A stretch of DNA of 17,815 nt, from NCBI GenBank assembly GCA_001821395.1, contig MHLM01000011.1, positions 1 through 17,815 of the forward strand, given 5' to 3'. Positions 8,853 to 16,851 of the stretch are shown here, piece by piece (position 1 is the first letter of the stretch; each line of letters opens with the position of its first letter). The notes under the pieces were generated by a model, which was not told the DNA's origin, ran no database searches, and saw only the letters and a program-made list of their open reading frames with translations. Made by a program: the position numbers and the translations under genes. Origin of the DNA: Candidatus Lloydbacteria bacterium RIFCSPHIGHO2_02_FULL_50_18 (lineage in GTDB: Bacteria; Patescibacteriota; Minisyncoccia; Phycocordibacterales; UBA6899).

Positions 8853-8984
8853 GGATTTTCCCCTCTTGAAAGGCACACAGTCGGCCCCTCCTGCGGGGGC
8901 CGCTGCCACTCTCGGCCAATTGCCCCATAAGAATGGGGGCCAAGCCAATTGTCCTGCGAGAGTCCTTTCAAGAGGAGAAAATCC
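8853..8984. repeat. Highly structured 132-bp element with 21-bp terminal inverted repeats (one mismatch), sitting between two convergent genes
   Basis: GGATTTTCCCCTCTTGAAAGG (8853-8873) is the reverse complement of CCTTTCAAGAGGAGAAAATCC (8964-8984) apart from one mismatch. Inside are hairpin CGGCCCC / GGGGCCG (8882-8902), outer stem CTCTCG / CGAGAG (8910-8915 with 8957-8962), hairpin GCCCC / GGGGC (8922-8940) and a direct repeat CCAATTG (8917-8923 and 8945-8951). Confidence 0.6.
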
Positions 8985-9048: not shown

Positions 9049-10257
9049 CTACGAGGGCTTCTGATACAGAGCGAATGTTTCTTTTGCCATGTGTGCAATG
9101 CTGAAACGATCACGGATCCGCTCCTTGAGTGTGCGGCCGAGCTCGGCGCACCGCTCTTTGTTGTCGATAAGATAAGTGATCGCTCTTGCCACCTCGCTCC
9201 CGTTTCGCGATTGAATGAGAATTCCGCTCTCCATGTCGTCGATGATCTCGGGAATTCCGCCGACAGCGGTAGCGATGACGGGAAGCCCTGCGTTGCCCGC
9301 TTCGAGGATGACATAAGGAAATGCCTCGGTGATCGACGGGAGAAGAAAAATATCGAACGCCGAGAGGAGCGTGGCGGCATTTTCTTTACGTCCTGCGATA
9401 AAGACCGAGTCGCCCAGTTCATATTTTTTCACGGACGCTTCAATGGCCGTACGTTCGGAGCCTTCTTCTCCGATCATGACGAATATCAACCGATCGTTTG
9501 GACGTTGTTTTTTGAGTAGCGCCATTCCCTCGACGGCATAGATAAGTCCCTTGCTCTTATGCAGTTCAGCAATAGTACCGATGATCGCCAGTGGTGGGGG
9601 GGTAAGGAATTGTTCTTTGTGTTCCCTAAAGATCATGTTGCACGCCTCTTCTTTTGGGAGTGTCGCGATCGGATCCCTTCCATTGTGAATCACGTGGAGT
9701 TTGTGCCAAACGAACGGAAGTATGCCCACTTGATCGCGCGTGCGTTTTGATACAGCGATCGTTACGTGTGCAAGCTCTATTGTGAGCCAATGGAATATAC
9801 CGATCACGAAGCGCTCGAGGTCGCTGCGCTCCTCGTTCCATGCCCAGCCGTGACCCGTGAAAACAATGCGCATGGTCTTTTGTTTGCTGGCGAATGGTCG
9901 CGTGAGATGCCACCAGCCATTCACGAGGCGTGCGGCGAGCGCACCAAGCCCGCCCATTTTTGAACTATTGAGATGAACGATATCGGGCTTCTCTCGGTGA
10001 AATAATGTGATCAGAAAAAAGAAGCTCTGGAGGTCAGACAGTATTTTCACATCCCGTCCCAACGTATCGATGGGAATCGTTCGGATGGATTGCTGCTCCA
10101 GGTATGTTTTTAGCATACCGTTTCCACCGAACACGACCACTACCTCGTGCCCCGCTTTGGTTGCCTCGGTCGCAAGATCAAAGACGTAGCGTTGCGCCCC
10201 GCCAAAGTTCGATTTCGTGATGAGGTATAAAATTTTCAGTTTGGGAGAATTTTCCAT
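9049..10257 (-). CDS. Glycosyltransferase family 1 (GT4-type)
   Basis: N-terminal KILYLITKSNFGGAQRY. C-terminal GT1 motif EAFPYVILEAGNAGLPVIATAVGGIPEII. The ATG at 10257 is preferred over the TTG at 10266 used by the ORF track. Confidence 0.85.
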   Translation of the reverse strand: MENSPKLKILYLITKSNFGGAQRYVFDLATEATKAGHEVVVVFGGNGMLKTYLEQQSIRTIPIDTLGRDVKILSDLQSFFFLITLFHREKPDIVHLNSSKMGGLGALAARLVNGWWHLTRPFASKQKTMRIVFTGHGWAWNEERSDLERFVIGIFHWLTIELAHVTIAVSKRTRDQVGILPFVWHKLHVIHNGRDPIATLPKEEACNMIFREHKEQFLTPPPLAIIGTIAELHKSKGLIYAVEGMALLKKQRPNDRLIFVMIGEEGSERTAIEASVKKYELGDSVFIAGRKENAATLLSAFDIFLLPSITEAFPYVILEAGNAGLPVIATAVGGIPEIIDDMESGILIQSRNGSEVARAITYLIDNKERCAELGRTLKERIRDRFSIAHMAKETFALYQKPS

Positions 10258-10266
10258 GATGGGCAA

Positions 10267-10445
10267 AGAATTATGCGGGGCGTGGGGAAGGGGTCGGGAA
10301 ACAGGGACGTTTTCCGTTGAGGAAAACAGCGACCATCGGGAGTGTTAGAAACCTACGGTTTCTAAAATATTTCGTCTGACGAAATATTGCCCCGCCAAAG
10401 TTTGATTTAGTGATGAGATAGAGTATGTTGAGCGATTCTTTGTCC
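10267..10445 (-). pseudogene. Decayed partial duplicate of the GT1 gene 5' end (58-codon remnant ORF)
   Basis: 10389-10417 is 27/29 identical to 10196-10224. The minus-strand translation MDKESLNILYLITKSNFGGAIF... parallels the GT N-terminus MENSPKLKILYLITKSNFGGAQRY. Similarity ends at the dyad sites. Confidence 0.45.
10345..10388. promoter_or_regulatory. Two adjacent perfect dyad-symmetric sites in the divergent intergenic region (candidate operator sites)
   Basis: TTAGAAACC-TAC-GGTTTCTAA (9-3-9, 10345-10365) is immediately followed by AATATTTCGTC-T-GACGAAATATT (11-1-11, 10366-10388). Confidence 0.45.
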
Positions 10446-10525
10446 ATATTCGTACGCCAAATATAACATAAAATAGCATGCCGAGGTTGCTTCCTTTTCA
10501 GGGTGCTTTTTGTTATCGTTTCTAA

Positions 10526-11866
10526 ATGAGACTTCTGCCATCTTTTCAGATCGTGACCATTTTTGCGGGGGATATCGTGATGCTGTTCTTCTCCCTTTTT
10601 GTGACGCTTGCGTTTCGCTATTTTGAACTACCAAGCACAGAGCTTTTTGTTCTTCACGCGCTGCCGTTCTCGTATCTCTTTGTCGTATGGCTGACGGTAT
10701 TCTATATCGCCAGTCTCTACGAGCCGCATACGGTGATTTTTAAATCGAAGATCCCTGCGACCATTCTCAACGTCCAGGCGGTGAATAGTATCATTGCGGT
10801 ACTTTTCTTTTACTTTATTCCTGCTTTTGGCATCACACCGAAGACGATACTTTTTCTGTACCTCATCATCTCATTCGTCTTCGTCTCCGCGTGGCGTATT
10901 TGGGGCGTGCAATTTCTTGGCCTGCGCAAAAAAGAACATGCGGTGCTCATCGGTTCAGGAGAAGAGACCCGCAAGCTGTACCGAGTCGTGAACGACAACC
11001 CGTTGTATCCGATGCGGTTCATTACGTGGCTTGATCTCGAAAAGCTCCCCGGTATCGATTTCGAACAGGAGGTATTGTCACGCATCTATGAAGAGGGGAT
11101 CAGTCTGATCGTGATCGACATGAAAAATGAAAAAGTACTCCCCATCCTCCCGAAGCTATACAATCTGATATTCTCACACGTCCGATTCGTTGAGCAATAT
11201 CGTATTTACGAGGATATCTTTGATCGCATACCGCTCTCGCTCATCAGCTACAATTGGTTCCTCGAGAATGTTTCATCGCATGCGCATTTCGGCTATGATC
11301 TCCTGAAACGGATCATGGATATTGCGCTCGCGGTCGTGCTTCTTGTCCCAACACTCGTGATCATTCCGTTTGTCATGCTCGCGATCAAGCTCGATGACGG
11401 CGGTCCGTTCTTTTACTCCCCGCTCCGTATCGGAGAGGGGAATCGCCCGTTCCGCATCTTCAAGTTCCGCACCATGAGCGTTATGGATGACGGGAAAGCA
11501 TTGAGCGCAAATGCGAACAAGATCACACGCGTCGGGGGTTTCCTCCGTACGTCACGGATAGACGAGCTTCCCCAGCTCTGGAATGTGCTTGCGGGTGATC
11601 TTTCGCTGATCGGTCCGCGGCCTGAATTCCCTGGCCTCGTCGACGTCTATCACAAGCAGATACCGTATTACAATATGCGTCACCTCATCAAGCCGGGGCT
11701 TTCAGGGTGGGCGCAGGTGCATCATGACAAGCCGCCGCAGACGATCGATGAAACAACAGAAAAGCTTGCATACGATCTCTACTATCTTAAAAATCGTTCG
11801 CTTGCGCTTGACGTTAAGATCGCACTGAAGACGATCAAAACGCTCATTTCCCGAACGGGTCTCTGA
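10526..11866 (+). CDS. Polyprenyl-phosphate sugar phosphotransferase (bacterial sugar transferase, WbaP/EpsL-like initiating glycosyltransferase)
   Basis: N-terminal transmembrane helices. The C-terminal catalytic domain has DIALAVVLL...KLDDGGPFFY...FKFRTM...ELPQLWNVLAGDLSLIGPRPE. Confidence 0.85.
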   Translation: MRLLPSFQIVTIFAGDIVMLFFSLFVTLAFRYFELPSTELFVLHALPFSYLFVVWLTVFYIASLYEPHTVIFKSKIPATILNVQAVNSIIAVLFFYFIPAFGITPKTILFLYLIISFVFVSAWRIWGVQFLGLRKKEHAVLIGSGEETRKLYRVVNDNPLYPMRFITWLDLEKLPGIDFEQEVLSRIYEEGISLIVIDMKNEKVLPILPKLYNLIFSHVRFVEQYRIYEDIFDRIPLSLISYNWFLENVSSHAHFGYDLLKRIMDIALAVVLLVPTLVIIPFVMLAIKLDDGGPFFYSPLRIGEGNRPFRIFKFRTMSVMDDGKALSANANKITRVGGFLRTSRIDELPQLWNVLAGDLSLIGPRPEFPGLVDVYHKQIPYYNMRHLIKPGLSGWAQVHHDKPPQTIDETTEKLAYDLYYLKNRSLALDVKIALKTIKTLISRTGL

Positions 11867-13567: not shown

Positions 13568-13589
13568 AAAAAGGTGTCAGGTACCTTTT
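13568..13589 (+). repeat. REP-like hairpin element, copy 1; also positioned as a terminator for the upstream gene
   Basis: AAAAAGGT / GTCAGGT / ACCTTTT. It is the exact reverse complement of 14282-14303. Confidence 0.65.
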
Positions 13590-13619
13590 ATTGTATATTT
13601 TTTTTGTTATACTTTATTT

Positions 13620-14294
13620 ATGCCCCGCGCCCCACGTGTTGATGTTGGTAATGAAGTGTATCACGTGATCAATCGTGCCAATAATCGTGCACAGATTTTT
13701 AATAATGAAAAAGAGTATCAACACTTCGAGAGACTATTGAAAGAAGCAAAAGTCCACGTGCCCATGCGAATTCTTGCATATGTGCTCATGCCAAATCATT
13801 GGCACCTAGTTCTTCATCCGGAGAATGATGGAGATTTAGCGTTATTTATGCAGTGGCTTACTTTGACGCATGCGCAGCAATATCGTGCAAAAACAAAAAC
13901 GATCGGTCATGGTCATCTCTATCAGGGAAGATACAAATCTTTTCTTGTGGAAAAAGATAACTACCTTATCCAATTGCTGCGTTATGTTGAGCGGAATCCT
14001 CATCGCGCCAAGCTCGTGAAGCGGGCAGAAGACTGGAGGTGGGGAAGTGCGTGGCGCAGATATCATGGAACAAGCAAAGAGCAGCAGCTTCTCCATGTTC
14101 CACCAATTGACCTCCCGCGAGGATACCGTGCGTGGCTTAATGAAAAAGAAGAAGTAGAACAATTGGTCACAATTCGCAATTCAGTAAATAGGGGGCGACC
14201 ACTTGGGACTGAAGGTTGGACTGGAAAGAAAATAACACAGTTTGGATTGGCGTTGACGATGCGCTCTCGCGGGAGACCAAAAAAAGGTACCTGA
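13620..14294 (+). CDS. HUH-Y1 tyrosine transposase of the IS200/IS605 TnpA / REP-associated tyrosine transposase (RAYT) type, with a roughly 70-aa C-terminal extension
   Basis: The HUH motif is MPNHWHLVL. The catalytic Tyr sits in HLYQGRYKSF. Other family blocks are YHVINRANNR and RYVERNPHRAKLV. The gene is flanked by inverted 22-nt hairpin repeats. Confidence 0.8.
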   Translation: MPRAPRVDVGNEVYHVINRANNRAQIFNNEKEYQHFERLLKEAKVHVPMRILAYVLMPNHWHLVLHPENDGDLALFMQWLTLTHAQQYRAKTKTIGHGHLYQGRYKSFLVEKDNYLIQLLRYVERNPHRAKLVKRAEDWRWGSAWRRYHGTSKEQQLLHVPPIDLPRGYRAWLNEKEEVEQLVTIRNSVNRGRPLGTEGWTGKKITQFGLALTMRSRGRPKKGT

Positions 14295-14303
14295 CACCTT
14301 TTT
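14282..14303 (+). repeat. REP-like hairpin element, copy 2 (inverted); it overlaps the transposase stop codon and serves as its terminator
   Basis: AAAAGGT / ACCTGAC / ACCTTTTT is the exact reverse complement of 13568-13589. A T-run follows. Confidence 0.65.
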
Positions 14304-14796: not shown

Positions 14797-15987
14797 ATGA
14801 AAGACAAATTAATTCAAAAACTCATTATCAAAGAAGAAAAGCGCGAACAGTCGGTCATCAACCTTATCGCTTCCGAGAATTTTGTTTCAGACGATGTACG
14901 GCAGGCGCTTGGTTCAGTATTCACCAATAAATATGCCGAAGGGTATCCGGGTCGCCGCTACTACGGCGGCAACAGTGTCGTTGATGAGCTCGAACTACTG
15001 ACTCAAGAGCGCGCACTCAAACTTTTTAAACTTTCATCGTCAAAGTGGCACGTGAATGTGCAGGCGCTTTCCGGGTCACCGGCGAATATGGCTGTCTATT
15101 TGGCACTATTGCCTCTCGACGGTTCGGGGAAGATCATGGGCATGCAGCTCGCGCATGGCGGACATCTGACGCATGGACACTCAGTTTCCGCGTCAGGAAA
15201 ATTTTGGAAACAAATTTCGTATGGCGTGTCAGAAAAAACAGAGCGCATTGATTTTGATGAGTTGATGAAGATCGCGAAGAAAGAAAAGCCGCACATCATT
15301 GTTGCGGGATTCACGGCCTATCCGCGCAAGATCGAATGGAAAAAATTTCGCGCCGTAGCCGATGCGGTCGGAGCGTATCTCATGGTCGACATGTCACACA
15401 TCGCGGGGCTTGTCGCCGGAGGTGCACATGCATCGCCATTCCCGTATGCCGACATCGTGACGACGACGACGCACAAAACATTGCGTGGCCCTCGTGGGGC
15501 GATGATCTTCGTGAAAAAAGACCTGCCTGCGCAGGCAGGTGTGCGTGACCTACCGAGCAAAATTGATAAGGCGGTCTTTCCGGGACTGCAGGGCGGCCCG
15601 CATGAGAATGCGATCGCCGGTATCGCCGTTGCGCTTCACGAAGCAGCGCAGCCGGCATTCAAAAAATACGCCGAACAGGTAGTAAAGAATGCGAGCGCAC
15701 TTGCGGGAGAACTCGCGCTGCTCGGTTGGCGCATTGTTTCCGGTGGCACCGACAATCATCTGATGCTCGTCGATACATGGGCGAATGGCATTTCGGGCAA
15801 AGAGGCGAGTGATCGTCTCGAGATTGCGGGGATCATCGTGAACATGAATACCATACCGAATGATACGCGTAAGCCGATGGATCCTTCAGGTATTCGCATC
15901 GGAACGGCGGCTGAAACGACGCGTGGTGCAAAGGAGCGCGATATGGTTGAGCTGGCATACGTGATAGACGCGGTGCTACGCGGATAA
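14797..15987 (+). CDS. glyA: Serine hydroxymethyltransferase
   Basis: Conserved blocks LIASENFVS, YAEGYPGRRYYGG and HGGHLTHG, plus the PLP-Lys region TTTTHKTLRGPRGAMIF. Confidence 0.9.
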   Translation: MKDKLIQKLIIKEEKREQSVINLIASENFVSDDVRQALGSVFTNKYAEGYPGRRYYGGNSVVDELELLTQERALKLFKLSSSKWHVNVQALSGSPANMAVYLALLPLDGSGKIMGMQLAHGGHLTHGHSVSASGKFWKQISYGVSEKTERIDFDELMKIAKKEKPHIIVAGFTAYPRKIEWKKFRAVADAVGAYLMVDMSHIAGLVAGGAHASPFPYADIVTTTTHKTLRGPRGAMIFVKKDLPAQAGVRDLPSKIDKAVFPGLQGGPHENAIAGIAVALHEAAQPAFKKYAEQVVKNASALAGELALLGWRIVSGGTDNHLMLVDTWANGISGKEASDRLEIAGIIVNMNTIPNDTRKPMDPSGIRIGTAAETTRGAKERDMVELAYVIDAVLRG

Positions 15988-16011: not shown

Positions 16012-16851
16012 ATGATCATCGACGGAAAACAGATCGCGAATGAATTACGTGCCGTGCTTCAGAAAAGTGTTGCCGCCCTCCCGCGCCCTCCGGTCCTCGG
16101 GATCGTCATTGTCGGTGATGATCCGGTGATCGAGAGTTTTGTGCGTATCAAAAAAAAGTATGGAGAATCGCTCGGAGTTTCCATTCGTGAATTTCGTTTC
16201 GACAGCAACATCTCAGGGGAGATGCTCAAAAATGAAGTAGCGATGCTTTCTCTCCGCGATGATATCAACGGCGTCGTCGTCCAGCTCCCGCTCCCCGTCT
16301 CGATCGATGCGCAATCGATACTCGATGCGGTACCGATCGCAAAAGATGTCGATGTGCTTTCTCATGCCGCAATGGTCGCCTTTGCGCGCGGTAAGGCAAA
16401 AATATTTCCGCCCGTCGCGAGCGCTATCCAAGAGATCCTTGAACGACATCAGGTGAGTGTCGAGGGGAAAGAGGTGCTCGTACTCGGACACGGAAGATTG
16501 GTGGGGAAACCCGTCACCATACTCCTGCAACACAATCATGCGCATGTGACCGTCATCGACAAACCCGTTGCCGATCTTGCCCTGCATGTGCGCGAATCAG
16601 AGATCGTTATCAGCGGGGTTGGAATACCTGCCCTCATTACCCCCTCAATGCTTTCGCCGAATGTCGTGCTTATTGATGCGGGGACGAGTGAGCAAGGGGG
16701 GCATATCGTTGGCGATGCCGACCCGAAATGCGTTGATCATGCAAGGTTTTTTACTCCTGTACCCGGGGGAGTGGGGCCCATCGCGGTGGCGATGCTTTTT
16801 AAGAATCTCGTACTGCTTGCACGTAGAAAGGACGAGCGACCGCATGCATAG
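16012..16851 (+). CDS. folD: Bifunctional 5,10-methylene-tetrahydrofolate dehydrogenase / cyclohydrolase
   Basis: N-terminus IIDGKQIA. Further blocks are LGIVIVGDDP..S..Y...K, VVQLPLP and GHGRLVGKPV. It sits next to glyA, as is typical. Confidence 0.9.
   Translation: MIIDGKQIANELRAVLQKSVAALPRPPVLGIVIVGDDPVIESFVRIKKKYGESLGVSIREFRFDSNISGEMLKNEVAMLSLRDDINGVVVQLPLPVSIDAQSILDAVPIAKDVDVLSHAAMVAFARGKAKIFPPVASAIQEILERHQVSVEGKEVLVLGHGRLVGKPVTILLQHNHAHVTVIDKPVADLALHVRESEIVISGVGIPALITPSMLSPNVVLIDAGTSEQGGHIVGDADPKCVDHARFFTPVPGGVGPIAVAMLFKNLVLLARRKDERPHA

What the first reader, a model, noticed from the sequence alone, without database searches (positions are those of the whole stretch)
10183..10445. The glycosyltransferase 5' end is duplicated as a decayed 58-codon remnant, with two abutting perfect dyads at the junction
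The first 22 or so codons of the GT1 gene, plus upstream-flanking bases, recur 188 bp further upstream on the same strand (27/29 nt identical over the core, MDKESLNILYLITKSNFGGAIF against MENSPKLKILYLITKSNFGGAQRY). Exactly where the duplicate loses similarity lie two perfect dyads, a 9-3-9 and an 11-1-11, placed back to back at 10345-10388. This looks like the scar of a rearrangement, such as a duplication, a gene-conversion tract or a cassette switch at a surface-polysaccharide locus. The dyads are either repressor operators controlling the divergent GT and sugar-transferase promoters, or recombination sites.
Basis: seen in the sequence. Interest (0 to 1): 0.55.

Follow-up and report, generated by a model that had tools for sequence, protein, structure and literature searches.

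The report
Conserved translated leader before a glycosyltransferase
What looked like the decaying scar of a duplicated gene start is a conserved upstream mini-gene plus RNA hairpins, kept in at least seven lineages of ultrasmall groundwater bacteria, that most likely controls how much of a cell-surface glycosyltransferase is made.

Summary
The glycosyltransferase (GT4) 5' end occurs twice, at 10196-10239 and 10389-10432 (36/44 nt, core 27/29, offset 193 not 188). Two perfect dyads abut at 10345-10388. Ten independent assemblies give the identical sequence.

The interpretation as a decaying scar with operator or recombination dyads does not hold. The same block lies between the divergent Bac_transf and GT4 genes in seven Paceibacteria lineages: a small ORF that starts with a copy of the GT4 N-terminus, hairpin H1, hairpin H2, alternative hairpins, and a C-rich end.

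- H1 is a dyad of fixed size and position whose stem sequence falls into four unrelated groups. Nine of its 10 pairs show changes on both sides.
- H2 keeps its sequence, with one compensated pair.
- The ORF stays open in all seven lineages and stops within 27 nt of the GT4 ATG or overlaps it.
- The duplicated codons vary almost only at third positions.
- The C-rich end is complementary to the GT4 Gly-Gly-Ala codons, with one compensatory swap.
- Rfam, Pfam and NCBIfam give no match.
- The three closest relatives lack the block.

Best reading: an ancient partial duplication became a translated, structured mRNA leader that gates GT4 expression. The exact mechanism is inferred, not shown.

The parts
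10460..10468 (-). Conserved extended -10-like box (TGTTATATT on the - strand), 12 nt upstream of the small ORF's ATG. In relatives without the leader the same box precedes the GT4 ATG itself. It probably gives a leaderless or near-leaderless transcript.
   Evidence: Sequence conservation with L011, L013, L015, L022, L023 and L032. Most genes of the window have a TANNNT box 6-12 nt before the ATG and no Shine-Dalgarno sequence. TA-like signals about 12 bp upstream of starts mark leaderless genes (PMC3160421). The transcription start was not mapped.
10271..10447 (-). Upstream ORF (uORF) of 58 codons plus stop. Codons 1-20 (10388-10447) copy the GT4 N-terminus (MDKESLNILYLITKSNFGGA). Codons 21-58 run through the hairpins and the C-rich tract. 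The TAA stop lies 13 nt before the GT4 ATG.
   Evidence: Homologous ORFs of 54-78 codons occur in six other lineages, all open, with stops 7-27 nt before the GT4 ATG or overlapping it. It is the only frame open across H2. No Pfam or NCBIfam family matches.
10389..10432 (-). Upstream (uORF) copy of the direct repeat, codons L-N-I-L-Y-L-I-T-K-S-N-F-G-G-A.
   Evidence: In 14 shared codons there are 8 nt differences from the GT4 copy and only 1 amino-acid change; P is about 3e-4 under random substitution. Across 7 lineages the variable columns by codon position are 2, 2, 12 of 13 each.
10392..10397 (-). 5' strand of helix P0 (UGGCGG), pairing with 10327-10332 and enclosing H1 and H2.
   Evidence: Predicted by RNAalifold. 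97.6% of cells are paired in 7 lineages, but the pairs vary on one side at most and show no two-sided changes, so support is weak. Its G-U pairs fit only the GT4-sense strand.
10366..10388 (-). A 23-nt dyad stands at this exact position in all seven lineages.
   Evidence: Folding energy is -7.4 kcal/mol (z = -3.7) on the GT4-sense strand and -7.9 (z = -5.2) on the opposite strand. Nine of 10 pairs have changes on both sides, and 96% of cells are paired.
10345..10365 (-). The stem sequence is conserved and the loop varies.
   Evidence: Folding energy is -8.8 kcal/mol, z = -4.1. All 9 pairs form in all 7 lineages. One pair is compensated (U-A to G-C) in L024 and L025.
10327..10332 (-). 3' strand of helix P0 (UCGCUG). 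It runs directly into the invariant GUUUUCC (region 1).
10309..10327 (-). Hairpin H3: region 1 GUUUUCC pairs with region 2 GGAAAAC. It is perfect in the window and carries two G-U pairs in other lineages. It excludes H4.
   Evidence: -8.0 kcal/mol. 97% of cells are paired in 5 lineages, with one-sided changes only.
10295..10316 (-). Hairpin H4: region 2 pairs with region 3 (GUUUCCC). It shares region 2 with H3. In the window it has one A-C mismatch.
   Evidence: RNAalifold consensus. 96% of cells are paired and 3 pairs have two-sided changes in 7 lineages.
10275..10282 (-). C-box (CGCCCCGC) at the end of a pyrimidine-rich tract, inside the last uORF codons (P-R-P-A). It is complementary to the GT4 codons at 10195-10202.
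   Evidence: 8-nt inverted match. Helix P5 is predicted by RNAalifold. It forms 8-9 of 9 pairs in 7 lineages with a loop of 70-75 nt, and L025 carries a compensatory CG-to-GC swap. The tract is 40-50% C and 16-25% G.
10270..10275 (-). CATAAT, a -10-like hexamer 12 nt upstream of the GT4 ATG, overlapping the uORF stop codon. It is a possible second promoter for GT4.
   Evidence: Read directly from the sequence. CATAAT is present in L022 and L034 and GATAAT in L023, but no such box is seen in L024 or L025. Not tested.
10259..10271 (-). Arm of a 13-nt inverted repeat (12/13) whose partner is the first 13 nt of the uORF (10435-10447). In the window's minimum-energy fold it closes the whole leader and buries the uORF AUG. 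It is specific to this lineage.
10195..10202 (-). GT-box (GCGGGGCG), lying in the Gly-Gly-Ala-Gln codons of GT4 (GGC GGG GCG CAA). It is the 3' strand of helix P5.
9049..10257 (-). GT4-family glycosyltransferase gene (402 aa), including the downstream repeat copy at 10196-10239.
   Evidence: Pfam Glycos_transf_1 and Glyco_transf_4. No NCBIfam equivalog reaches its cut-off.
10526..11866 (+). Divergent polyprenyl-phosphate sugar transferase gene (Bac_transf, 446 aa). It is the conserved neighbour in all lineages examined.

Best explanation
The 'remnant' and the dyads are parts of one conserved element, a translated and structured leader of about 190 nt (10258-10447, - strand) on the GT4 mRNA.

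Origin (inferred). An old partial duplication of the GT4 5' end left the original promoter and start codon driving a small upstream ORF. Its first roughly 20 codons still spell the enzyme's N-terminus.

Layout (shown). The ORF then runs through two adjacent hairpins (H1, H2), a pair of mutually exclusive hairpins (H3/H4) and a C-rich tract. It stops just before the GT4 start. The C-rich end can pair with the GT4 Gly-Gly-Ala codons about 55-60 nt inside the gene (helix P5), enclosing the GT4 start in a 70-75-nt loop.

Mechanism (inferred). GT4 has no Shine-Dalgarno sequence, and most genes here look leaderless. GT4 translation therefore probably depends on ribosomes that translate the upstream ORF, melt P5 as they reach its end, and terminate next to the GT4 AUG (translational coupling or unmasking). 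How easily ribosomes pass the hairpins and the proline-rich end would then set GT4 output. A uORF-controlled, Rho-type transcription attenuator using the C-rich tract is a close variant that I cannot separate from this.

Not shown: transcription through the leader, translation of the ORF, any effect on GT4, and the signal that is sensed.
For: 1. Conservation. The same block lies between Bac_transf and GT4 in seven lineages: window, L022, L023, L024, L025-L031, L032/L033 and L034. Their GT4 proteins are only 49-69% identical to one another over the first 235 residues compared, measured for five of them. A covariance model built from five lineages found the two others at 120-123 bits, although annotators had called no ORF there.

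2. Structure.
- RNAalifold on its own predicts H1, H2, H4, P0 and P5.
- 94.7% (5 lineages) and 97.1% (7 lineages) of cells are paired, against about 83.5% in shuffles and 40-54% when partners are slid. 14 pairs carry two-sided changes.
- H1 has 9 of 10 pairs with two-sided changes. H2, H4 and P5 each have compensated pairs.
- G-U pairs in P0, H3 and P5 fit only the GT4-sense strand.
- Single-sequence folds of L023 and L025 give H1, H2, H4 and P5, with z = -4.4 and -4.0.

3. Translation.
- The ORF is open in 7 of 7 lineages. It is the only frame open across H2.
- The gap from its stop to the GT4 ATG is 13, 12, 27, -4, 12, 7 and 12 nt.
- Length differences are +2 and +1 in the window and in the L022/L032/L034 type, and +12 in L025. 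All preserve the frame.
- Duplicated codons vary at positions 1, 2, 3 in 2, 2, 12 of 13 columns, the same as the real gene (2, 1, 12).
- Of 45 within-genome differences between the two copies, 39 are at third positions. The only amino-acid change is Gly to Glu.

4. Context. GT4 and most genes of the window lack a Shine-Dalgarno sequence and carry TANNNT boxes 6-12 nt before the ATG (PMC3160421).

5. No Rfam, Pfam or NCBIfam match.
Against: - No expression data exist. Transcription, uORF translation and any regulatory effect are all inferred.
- P5 does not pair with the GT4 AUG itself. It rests mostly on invariant G/C positions that are also constrained by coding, and only one pair covaries.
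- In the window, and possibly in L022, L023 and L034, a -10-like hexamer sits just upstream of the GT4 ATG. GT4 might therefore have its own leaderless transcript that bypasses the leader.
- In the window's own minimum-energy fold the C-box pairs with the uORF copy of the Gly codons rather than with GT4. The window's version may work differently or be drifting.
- The three closest relatives (L011, L013/L014, L015/L016) do without the leader, so it is dispensable.
- Only seven lineages were available, several related, so the covariation counts are few events.
- Why the N-terminal peptide is conserved is not explained by simple coupling.
Confidence: 0.6

Rival explanations
1. One reading: a neutral scar. 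A recent duplication, gene-conversion tract or cassette switch left a decaying 5' fragment of the GT gene, and the dyads are by-products or recombination sites.
For: The duplication is real, and the repeat boundary abuts a perfect palindrome. The closest relatives lack the block. Inter-lineage recombination does occur nearby: SHMT is 97.7% identical to L013 but 88.7% to L011.
Against: - The block is present and alignable in seven diverged lineages.
- The substitution pattern is that of purifying selection, P about 3e-4.
- The ORF is kept open, and the hairpins are kept by compensatory changes.
- About 55 nt of the 3' half is nearly identical between lineages whose GT4 proteins are about 50% identical.
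- There is no polymorphism in ten assemblies.
Confidence: 0.04
2. The dyads are double-stranded DNA sites: operators for a repressor of the divergent GT4 and Bac_transf promoters, or targets of a site-specific recombinase or transposase.
For: They are perfect palindromes near a divergent promoter region. The H2 sequence is conserved across lineages. A Y1 (IS200-like) transposase gene lies 3 kb away, and another lies near the locus in L025.
Against: - H1 keeps its symmetry but not its sequence, with four unrelated stems. An operator would keep its sequence.
- The dyads lie 60-100 nt downstream of the promoter, inside a conserved ORF.
- G-U pairs in neighbouring helices work only on one strand.
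- No copy of either dyad occurs elsewhere in the window.
- Scans of genome and metagenome collections for H1 gave only chance 22-23-nt hits.
- The inverted repeats flanking the Y1 gene are unrelated in sequence.
- No helix-turn-helix regulator was seen among the ten window proteins scanned against Pfam.
Confidence: 0.05
3. A uORF-dependent, Rho-type transcription attenuator of the tnaC, mgtL, corL or cruR kind. The pyrimidine-rich, G-poor tract is a Rho loading site that is shielded when a ribosome translates or pauses at the proline-rich end of the ORF, and exposed otherwise.
For: - The 74-86 nt after H2 are 40-50% C and 16-25% G, against a window average of 23% C.
- The ORF ends within this tract with P-x-P-x-P-R-P-A.
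- H3 and H4 are mutually exclusive hairpins.
- No hairpin is followed by a consistent U-tract, so an intrinsic terminator is unlikely.
- Precedents are reviewed in PMC12360218.
Against: Whether these genomes encode Rho was not testable here. The tract is largely folded (H4, P5) in predicted structures, whereas Rho sites are usually unstructured. No consecutive prolines occur. This rival overlaps the best explanation and differs only in the step controlled (transcription rather than translation).
Confidence: 0.2
4. The ORF encodes a small protein (54-78 aa) that acts on its own, away from the mRNA, and the hairpins are incidental or stabilise the mRNA.
For: The ORF is conserved and open in seven lineages, and its N-terminal 13-20 residues are under amino-acid-level selection. 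HMMER finds homologous ORFs by their tails.
Against: - In the H1 segment the peptide is not conserved at all (IFRQTKY, ESFMKRF, ERLQKAL, LTRNARQ), while the RNA pairing is.
- Between the two indels the window reads a different frame from the other lineages, so that stretch of peptide is not maintained.
- Third positions in the tail are as conserved as the other positions, which points to nucleotide-level constraint.
- There is no family match.
Confidence: 0.08
5. A ligand- or protein-binding RNA, such as a riboswitch or the binding site of an RNA-binding protein. P0, H1, H2 and a mini-hairpin would form a junction that senses a signal, with H3/H4 and P5 as the expression platform. The ORF would be secondary.
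For: A multi-branch junction closed by P0 has invariant joining nucleotides. H2 and the GCUGUUUUCCUC segment are conserved far beyond what coding needs. The overlap of H3 and H4 is typical of expression platforms.
Against: P0 has no covariation. The conserved ORF, with frame-preserving indels and a 3-periodic substitution pattern, is not expected for a pure riboswitch. No Rfam family matches. No ligand is suggested by the data.
Confidence: 0.1

Closest known systems
Proline-rich leader ORFs with alternative stem-loops and Rho sites: mgtL of the Salmonella mgtA leader, and corL of corA
   Same: A short upstream ORF rich in alternating prolines overlaps alternative RNA hairpins and a C-rich tract just before the regulated gene. 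Ribosome progress through the ORF decides the RNA fold (PMC12360218).
   Different: - Here the ORF is three to four times longer.
- It starts with a selected copy of the regulated enzyme's own N-terminus.
- It contains two extra conserved hairpins (H1, H2).
- It ends next to a gene start that has no Shine-Dalgarno sequence.
- Dependence on Rho, Mg2+ or proline is untested.
- There is no sequence homology.
tnaC, speFL and cruR: arrest peptides at or near a stop codon that shield a Rho site
   Same: The uORF stop lies close to the regulated gene, a C-rich region adjoins the stop, and the peptide ends with proline-containing residues. cruR has a C-terminal RAPP motif (PMC12360218).
   Different: No conserved arrest motif directly abuts the stop: zero to 17 residues follow the P-R-P-A (or P-R-A-A) motif. 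No ligand is known. The long-range helix into the coding region has no counterpart.
Translation attenuation and coupling by unmasking: ermC and cat leader peptides; coupled genes with overlapping or nearby stop and start
   Same: A translated leader overlaps one strand of a helix that restrains the downstream start. Stop-to-start distances of -4 to 27 nt, including an ATGA overlap in L024, are typical of coupling.
   Different: The helix pairs with codons 19-21 of the gene rather than with the ribosome-binding site or AUG. The system appears to operate in a leaderless, Shine-Dalgarno-poor setting. No antibiotic or other inducer is implied. This comparison rests on my own knowledge of these systems.
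Monitoring substrates SecM and MifM
   Same: An upstream ORF whose N-terminal part resembles a substrate or partner of the pathway being regulated, and whose C-terminal part would sit in the ribosome tunnel. With 54-60 residues, the copied N-terminus would just have emerged when the ribosome reaches the stop. This is an inference from typical tunnel length, from my own knowledge.
   Different: No arrest has been shown. The N-terminus copies a cytoplasmic enzyme's first strand and glycine loop, not a signal or membrane segment. This is a resemblance only, not a tested membership.
Pseudogene fragments and duplication scars at polysaccharide loci
   Same: It arises from a partial duplication of a gene's 5' end at a surface-polysaccharide locus. 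It is absent from the nearest relatives, and a deletion between the two repeat copies would remove it cleanly.
   Different: It is conserved in seven lineages, under purifying selection, with an open frame and compensated hairpins.

Membership tests
Decaying duplication scar or pseudogene fragment | Substitutions fall without regard to codon position, and amino-acid changes and stops accumulate | tested here: not met
   8 nt differences in 14 codons give 1 amino-acid change, P about 3e-4. Across 7 lineages the variable columns by codon position are 2, 2, 12.
Decaying duplication scar or pseudogene fragment | Lineage-specific, not conserved in diverged relatives | tested here: not met
   Present in 7 lineages whose GT4 proteins are 49-69% identical, and absent from 3.
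Repressor operator (DNA palindrome) | The palindrome sequence is conserved among orthologous promoters and overlaps or adjoins the promoter | tested here: not met
   The H1 stem sequence differs completely between lineages while its symmetry is kept. The dyads lie 60-100 nt downstream of the -10 box, inside an ORF. The H2 sequence is conserved, so H2 alone is not excluded.
Repressor operator (DNA palindrome) | A cognate DNA-binding regulator is encoded nearby, or the site recurs at co-regulated promoters | tested here: not met
   No helix-turn-helix domain was found in the ten window proteins scanned. No second copy occurs in the window. The whole genome was not available.
Mobile palindromic element (REP or MITE) | Many copies per genome at unrelated sites, with terminal inverted repeats and target duplications | tested here: not met
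   There is one copy per locus, always at the same site between the same genes. The 131-nt insert has no match elsewhere in the held loci. H1 was not found in the genome and metagenome scans beyond chance hits. The source genome itself was not in those collections, so the within-genome copy number is untested.
Intrinsic-terminator attenuator (trp or his type) | A G+C-rich hairpin followed by a U-tract, alternating with an anti-terminator, and regulatory codons in the leader peptide | tested here: not met
   Alternative hairpins H3 and H4 exist, but no hairpin has a consistent U-tract across lineages. The scan flags H2 only on the opposite strand. No run of one amino acid's codons is present, apart from spaced prolines.
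uORF-mediated translational coupling or unmasking | A conserved translated upstream ORF that ends at or near the start of the regulated gene | tested here: met
   The ORF is open in 7 of 7 lineages, with gaps of 13, 12, 27, -4, 12, 7 and 12 nt, frame-preserving indels and a 3-periodic substitution pattern. Translation itself was not observed.
uORF-mediated translational coupling or unmasking | An RNA structure that restrains the downstream start and is opened by the ribosome translating the ORF | tested here: inconclusive
   P5 (C-box with GT4 Gly-Gly-Ala codons) forms 8-9 of 9 pairs in all 7 lineages, with one compensatory swap. Its 5' strand lies in the last uORF codons. However, the AUG sits in the loop, not in a helix, and the window's own best fold uses another partner.
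uORF-dependent Rho attenuator (tnaC, mgtL type) | A C-rich, G-poor Rho loading site next to or overlapping the uORF end | tested here: met
   The tract is 40-50% C and 16-25% G over 74-86 nt, against 23% C in the window overall.
uORF-dependent Rho attenuator (tnaC, mgtL type) | Rho is present and termination depends on uORF translation | not testable with these tools
   The genomes could not be scanned for rho, and there are no expression data.
Known RNA families (Rfam 15) | A match to a curated covariance model | tested here: not met
   No hit at gathering score in the window or in L022-L025. Only chance-level hits (E > 1) occur over the leader.
Riboswitch | A conserved ligand-binding junction with covarying stems, conserved unpaired nucleotides and an identified ligand | tested here: inconclusive
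   A junction of P0, H1, H2 and a mini-hairpin is predicted, with invariant linkers. P0 lacks covariation, and no ligand can be inferred.

The most novel reading that the evidence does not exclude
The upstream ORF is a nascent-chain sensor that uses a decoy copy of the enzyme's own N-terminus. When the ribosome reaches the proline-rich end of the 54-60-codon ORF, the roughly 20 N-terminal residues that copy GT4's first strand and glycine loop have just left the exit tunnel. Something that normally engages the real N-terminus could then change how long the ribosome stays on the C-box, and so set GT4 synthesis by feedback. Candidates are the rest of GT4, its partner the sugar-phosphate transferase, or the membrane surface. 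This would explain the one fact that simple coupling does not: amino-acid-level selection on the copied residues. It would be a self-mimicking monitoring substrate, a type not described to my knowledge.
Probability: 0.1. Interest if true: 0.85.

Novelty: new variant of a known kind. Interest (0 to 1): 0.62.

Why it matters
Patescibacteria (CPR) have tiny genomes, almost no described regulators and very few known cis-regulatory RNAs. They live attached to hosts through their cell surface. A conserved, structured, translated leader in front of a surface-polysaccharide glycosyltransferase would be a rare handle on gene regulation in this group, and it can be tested with existing groundwater metatranscriptomes and in-vitro translation.

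It also shows how a partial gene duplication can be recruited as a regulatory leader instead of decaying. The regulator here keeps a selected copy of the regulated protein's N-terminus. For annotation, the small ORF is mostly uncalled or labelled hypothetical, and the repeat invites a pseudogene or misassembly reading that the comparative data contradict.

Tried and rejected
1. Tandem duplication of a 193-nt unit. Rejected: only 44 nt are shared and nothing else is in register.

2. The 131-nt insert as an inverted, degenerate copy of the GT4 5' region, suggested by a 22-nt, 77% inverted match (10134-10155 with 10275-10296). Rejected: local alignments to four GT4 genes in both orientations score at chance, P = 0.11-0.98.

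3. Recent replacement by a foreign allele with one illegitimate junction (homology-facilitated illegitimate recombination). I favoured this until.
- Sliding-window identity along GT4 shows no clear breakpoint.
- GT4 is roughly congruent with its neighbours.
- The junction register is identical in all seven lineages, so no illegitimate join is needed.
- A homologous re-acquisition of the leader by the window lineage remains possible.

4. Mobile element (REP, MITE, or IS200-end hairpins). Rejected: one copy per locus and no matches. The two public scans for H1 returned only chance palindromes (Dictyobacter, Treponema, two metagenome contigs) and did not contain the source population, so they say nothing about copy number within the source genome.

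5. A closer sister lineage showing the state before the insertion or the donor state. None exists in the protein collection between 78% and 100% (GT4) or 86% and 99% (Bac_transf) identity. L017, at '87%', is the same population with an internal deletion.

6. Gene conversion alone as the cause of the coding-like pattern. Not sufficient:
- L023 differs from its own GT4 copy at 12 of 39 nt, yet has a single amino-acid change.
- Every uORF copy ends GCA, while every GT4 copy ends GCG.
- L024 and L025 do show signs of concerted evolution.

7. Translational bypassing (T4 gene 60 style) from the first Gly-Gly-Ala codons to the second. Considered and set aside: there is no stop at the take-off site, the frame is kept open across the gap, and the second copy has its own start.

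8. Read-through or frameshift fusion of the ORF to GT4. The phase between the two differs among lineages (gaps of 13, 12, 27, -4, 12, 7, 12 nt).

9. A weak covariance-model hit at window 16190-16305 (18.7 bits, inside the FolD gene) was judged spurious.


Full report
**1. The observation.** The window carries a GT4-family glycosyltransferase gene on the - strand (9049..10257). It has Pfam Glycos_transf_1 and Glyco_transf_4 domains and is divergent from a Bac_transf sugar-phosphate transferase gene (10526..11866, +). Positions 10196-10239 and 10389-10432 match at 36/44 nt (core 27/29), the longest direct repeat in the window, and no shuffle reproduces it. The offset is 193 nt in register (190 nt between the ATGs), not 188.

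The 58-codon ORF (10271..10447, -) and both peptide strings are as stated. The two dyads are perfect and abutting, at 10345-10365 (9-3-9) and 10366-10388 (11-1-11), and similarity ends exactly at the edge of the second. I add a third perfect dyad (10309-10327), an overlapping alternative hairpin (10295-10316), and a 13-nt inverted repeat bracketing the block (10259-10271 with 10435-10447). Ten contigs from four sources are identical over 10100-10600, so this is not a misassembly. The source record is GCA_001818945.1, MHLI01000021.1.

**2. First comparison: the upstream copy sits at the ancestral start.** The nearest distinct relatives with the same gene order are L011, L013/L014 and L015/L016. 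Their GT4 proteins are 78%, 69% and 68-69% identical to the window's over the full length, and they lack the block. In L011 and L015 the GT4 ATG lies 78 nt from the Bac_transf ATG. The small ORF's ATG in the window has the same spacing, behind the same conserved sequence (...aacgataacaaaaagc..gaaaggaagcaacc..TGTTATATT..cgtacgaatATGGAC). About 190 nt have therefore been added between the old start and the present gene body.

The two copies differ at 8 nt in 14 shared codons, but by only one amino acid (P about 3e-4 for random substitution). This already argued against decay after a local duplication. I then pursued a foreign-allele replacement model, an inverted-copy model and a mobile-element model. 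None held up (see the section on rejected ideas).

**3. The turning point.** I ran HMMER with only the 38-residue tail of the ORF, the part encoded by the 'junk' between the repeats, against 1.84 billion representative proteins. It found a 90-residue ORF with 65% identity (P0243). Its contig (L022) has the same architecture in a distant lineage. A profile of the two tails found three more ORFs, P0245, P0246 and P0247, the last annotated as from Candidatus Yonathbacteria. Each lies between Bac_transf and GT4 (L023, L024, L025-L031).

A covariance model built from these five lineages found nothing in the three leaderless relatives. My last two look-ups went to GT4 homologues P0060, chosen for an N-terminus like L022's, and P0024, a named Candidatus Lloydbacteria genome. 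The model scored 120-123 bits on both (L032/L033, GCA_001821385.1; and L034), although no ORF is annotated there. That makes seven lineages with the block and three without. GT4 identity among five of the carriers (W, L022-L025) is 49-69% over the first 235 residues compared.

**4. Anatomy shared by the seven lineages (GT4-sense strand; window coordinates).**

| Part | Window coordinates | Notes |
|---|---|---|
| -10-like box TGTTATATT | 10460-10468 | 12 nt before the ORF's ATG |
| ORF codons 1-20 | 10388-10447 | ...ILYLITKSNFG(G/E)A; always ends GCA, while the GT4 copy always ends GCG |
| H1 | 10366-10388 | 23-nt dyad directly after the copied codons |
| H2 | 10345-10365 | UUAGAAACC-NNN-GGUUUCUAA |
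| Linker | 10328-10344 | |
| Region 1 | 10321-10327 | GUUUUCC, invariant |
| Region 2 | 10309-10315 | |
| Region 3 | 10296-10302 | |
| C-rich tract ending in C-box CGCCCCGC | C-box 10275-10282 | Inside the last uORF codons |
| Stop codon | 10271-10273 | |
| GT4 ATG | 10255-10257 | |

Region 1 pairs with region 2 (H3), or region 2 pairs with region 3 (H4).

**5. The hairpins are selected structures.** RNAalifold, unguided, predicts H1, H2, H4, a helix P0 that encloses H1 and H2, and a long-range helix P5 between the C-box and the GT4 Gly-Gly-Ala codons.

| Alignment | Cells paired | Shuffled controls | Partners slid | Pairs with two-sided changes |
|---|---|---|---|---|
| MAFFT, five lineages | 94.7% | 83.6% | 40-51% | 14 |
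| Model-fitted, seven lineages | 97.1% | 83.5% | 40-54% | 14 pairs, 33 cells |

- H1 is the clearest case. Its stems fall into four unrelated groups: AATATTTCGTC in the window; AGAATCTTT and close variants AGAATCTTG and AAAATCTTTGC in L022, L023, L032 and L034; AGAGCGCCT in L024; and ATTGACGCGC in L025. All occupy the same 23 nt, and 9 of 10 pairs have two-sided changes.
- H2 forms 9 of 9 pairs everywhere, with one U-A to G-C swap.
- H4 has three compensated pairs.
- P5 forms 8-9 of 9 pairs in all seven lineages at a constant loop of 70-75 nt. L025 carries CGCGCCGCC opposite GGCGGCGCG where the others have CGCCCCGCC opposite GGCGGGGCG.
- G-U pairs in P0, H3 and P5 are possible only on the GT4-sense strand. 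Together with the loss of sequence in H1, this favours RNA hairpins over duplex DNA sites.
- Rfam 15 has no matching family.

P0 lacks covariation, and P5 rests mostly on invariant, coding-constrained positions. I regard these two helices as plausible, not established.

**6. The ORF behaves like a translated ORF.** It is open in all seven lineages and is the only frame open across H2, whose UAG and UAA triplets close the other two frames. Its stop lies 13, 12, 27, -4 (ATGA overlap), 12, 7 and 12 nt from the GT4 ATG. Length differences between lineages preserve the frame: +2 in H4 with +1 in the C-rich tract, in the window and separately in the L022/L032/L034 type, and +12 in L025.

The copied codons vary at codon positions 1, 2, 3 in 2, 2, 12 of 13 columns, indistinguishable from the real gene (2, 1, 12). 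Of 45 within-genome differences between the two copies, 39 are at third positions, and the only amino-acid change is Gly to Glu in four lineages. Occasional gene conversion is likely, because L024 and L025 copies are nearly identical to their own GT4 and L025 shares ILYAITK in both copies. It cannot be the whole story, because L023 differs at 12 of 39 nt yet has one amino-acid change.

In the tail, by contrast, the constraint is on nucleotides. The peptide across H1 is not conserved, the window reads part of the tract in another frame, and third positions are as fixed as the others. The peptides match no Pfam or NCBIfam family.

**7. How it most likely works (inferred).** Most genes in the window have a TANNNT box 6-12 nt before the ATG and no Shine-Dalgarno sequence, the signature of leaderless transcripts (PMC3160421). 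In leaderless relatives the conserved box drives GT4 directly. Here it drives the small ORF, and the GT4 AUG has become internal, without a ribosome-binding site, and lies inside the P5 loop.

The simplest reading is translational coupling or unmasking. Ribosomes translating the ORF unwind H1, H2, H3/H4 and then the C-box strand of P5, and terminate next to the GT4 AUG. The hairpins and the P-x-P-x-P-R-P-A end would set the flux. Single-sequence folds of L023 and L025 form H1, H2, H4 and P5 (z = -4.4 and -4.0).

A close variant is a Rho-type attenuator like tnaC, mgtL, corL or cruR (PMC12360218). The 74-86 nt after H2 are 40-50% C and 16-25% G, and no hairpin has a consistent U-tract. I could not test for rho.

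Caveats:
- In the window the C-box prefers the uORF copy of the Gly codons, and a lineage-specific 13-nt stem buries the uORF AUG.
- A CATAAT hexamer 12 nt before the GT4 ATG could give GT4 its own transcript.
- The leader is dispensable in three relatives.

**8. Origin and distribution.** The fixed GCA/GCG difference between the two copies and the alignable insert indicate a single old duplication. The window clusters with the three leaderless loci (GT4 65-73%, Bac_transf 74-87% identity), and the other carriers lie outside this cluster. Two histories fit. Either the leader was lost up to three times, or it was lost once and regained by the window lineage through homologous exchange.

Loss is easy by recombination between the two repeat copies. 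It would leave a normal gene with the uORF's N-terminal residues. The relatives' MD(E/Q)KPLK resembles the window uORF's MDKESLN in length and pattern. Exchange between lineages does occur nearby: SHMT is 97.7% identical to L013 against 88.7% to L011. I cannot decide between the two histories.

**9. Comparison with what is known, and novelty.** The element works like known leader-ORF controls (mgtL, corL, tnaC, cruR, erm-type attenuation, coupled genes). It is not a member of any curated family: all Rfam, Pfam and NCBIfam tests were negative. Three features set it apart:
- an N-terminal copy of the regulated enzyme, kept by amino-acid-level selection;
- two extra conserved hairpins inside the ORF;
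- a long-range helix into the gene's Gly-Gly-Ala codons, in a leaderless, Shine-Dalgarno-poor organism.

Five full-text literature searches, two of them aimed at RNA motifs and leader peptides in this bacterial group, found no description of it. I rate it a new variant of a known kind.

**10. Verdict.**
- The duplication origin is supported.
- The 'decayed scar, operator or recombination site' reading is not supported.
- The element is very probably functional (about 0.9).
- Confidence in the whole best explanation, including the mechanism, is 0.6.
- The specific mechanism, coupling or unmasking against a Rho-type attenuator, is a best guess (about 0.4 and 0.2).

Noticed in passing
window 8853-8984 (between the stop codons of the Lnt-like gene at 8845 and GT4 at 9049): A roughly 132-nt element with a 21-bp closing stem (arms 8853-8873 and 8964-8984, 20/21) encloses two G+C-rich hairpins. 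Its fold is very stable on both strands (-82.5 and -74.1 kcal/mol, z = -5.8 and -5.3). It has no Rfam match, even at permissive E-values, and no counterpart in the relatives' loci. It could be an undescribed small RNA, a bidirectional terminator or a palindromic insert. The differences seen in contig L007 are contig-end errors, not variation.
   Followed up: partly
window 13568-14303: An IS200-like Y1 transposase gene (13620-14294, 224 aa, Pfam Y1_Tnp) is flanked by 26-nt inverted repeats (13568-13593 and 14278-14303, 25/26), each itself a hairpin. The layout resembles REP-associated tyrosine transposases. A Y1_Tnp gene also lies near the GT4 locus in the Yonathbacteria lineage (L025 7389-8078).
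   Followed up: no
window 14797-15987 (SHMT gene): The SHMT protein is 97.7% identical to that of lineage L013 but 88.7% to L011, whereas neighbouring genes are 79-82% identical to L013 and 86-91% to L011. This points to a recent exchange of this gene between co-occurring aquifer lineages.
   Followed up: partly
window 9371-9523 (inside GT4); locus L017: One contig of the same population (ERZ28563641) is identical to the window except for a 153-nt in-frame deletion (51 codons) in the C-terminal domain of GT4. It is either a population variant that inactivates or alters the enzyme, or an assembly collapse.
   Followed up: partly
window 1-1873: The window holds the end of an rRNA operon, with a tRNA-Arg(TCG) gene (1606-1678) between the 23S and 5S rRNA genes. 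The tRNA is bracketed by two nested long inverted repeats (1558-1578 with 1716-1736, and 1596-1612 with 1670-1686) that look like processing stems.
   Followed up: no
window, upstream of most gene starts (for example 7379, 11996, 13620, 14797, 16012): Most genes have a TANNNT or TGTTAYANT box 6-12 nt before the ATG and no Shine-Dalgarno sequence. Only two of fourteen starts show GGAG-like motifs. Leaderless transcripts therefore seem to be the rule in this organism.
   Followed up: partly
L013 4813-5000, L014 4604-4778, L032 1423-1825: The same divergent intergenic region takes other lineage-specific insertions. L013/L014, which lack the leader, have about 100 extra nt with their own imperfect hairpin. 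The Lloydbacteria locus has about 400 extra nt between Bac_transf and the promoter. The spacer seems to be an insertion hot spot.
   Followed up: no
window 10259-10271 and 10435-10447: A 13-nt inverted repeat (12/13) pairs the first 13 nt of the small ORF with the 13 nt just before the GT4 start region. In the window's predicted fold it closes the whole leader and buries the uORF AUG. It is not conserved as such in the other lineages. It occurs in 0 of 300 shuffles, but about three similar chance pairs exist in the 17.8-kb window.
   Followed up: partly
L025 4965-4994 (Yonathbacteria lineage, divergent promoter region): A perfect 12-nt inverted repeat, ATGGTATATAAT-N6-ATTATATACCAT, spans the TATAAT boxes between Bac_transf and the small ORF. 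It is either a symmetric pair of divergent promoters or a true operator-like site. The window has nothing comparable.
   Followed up: no
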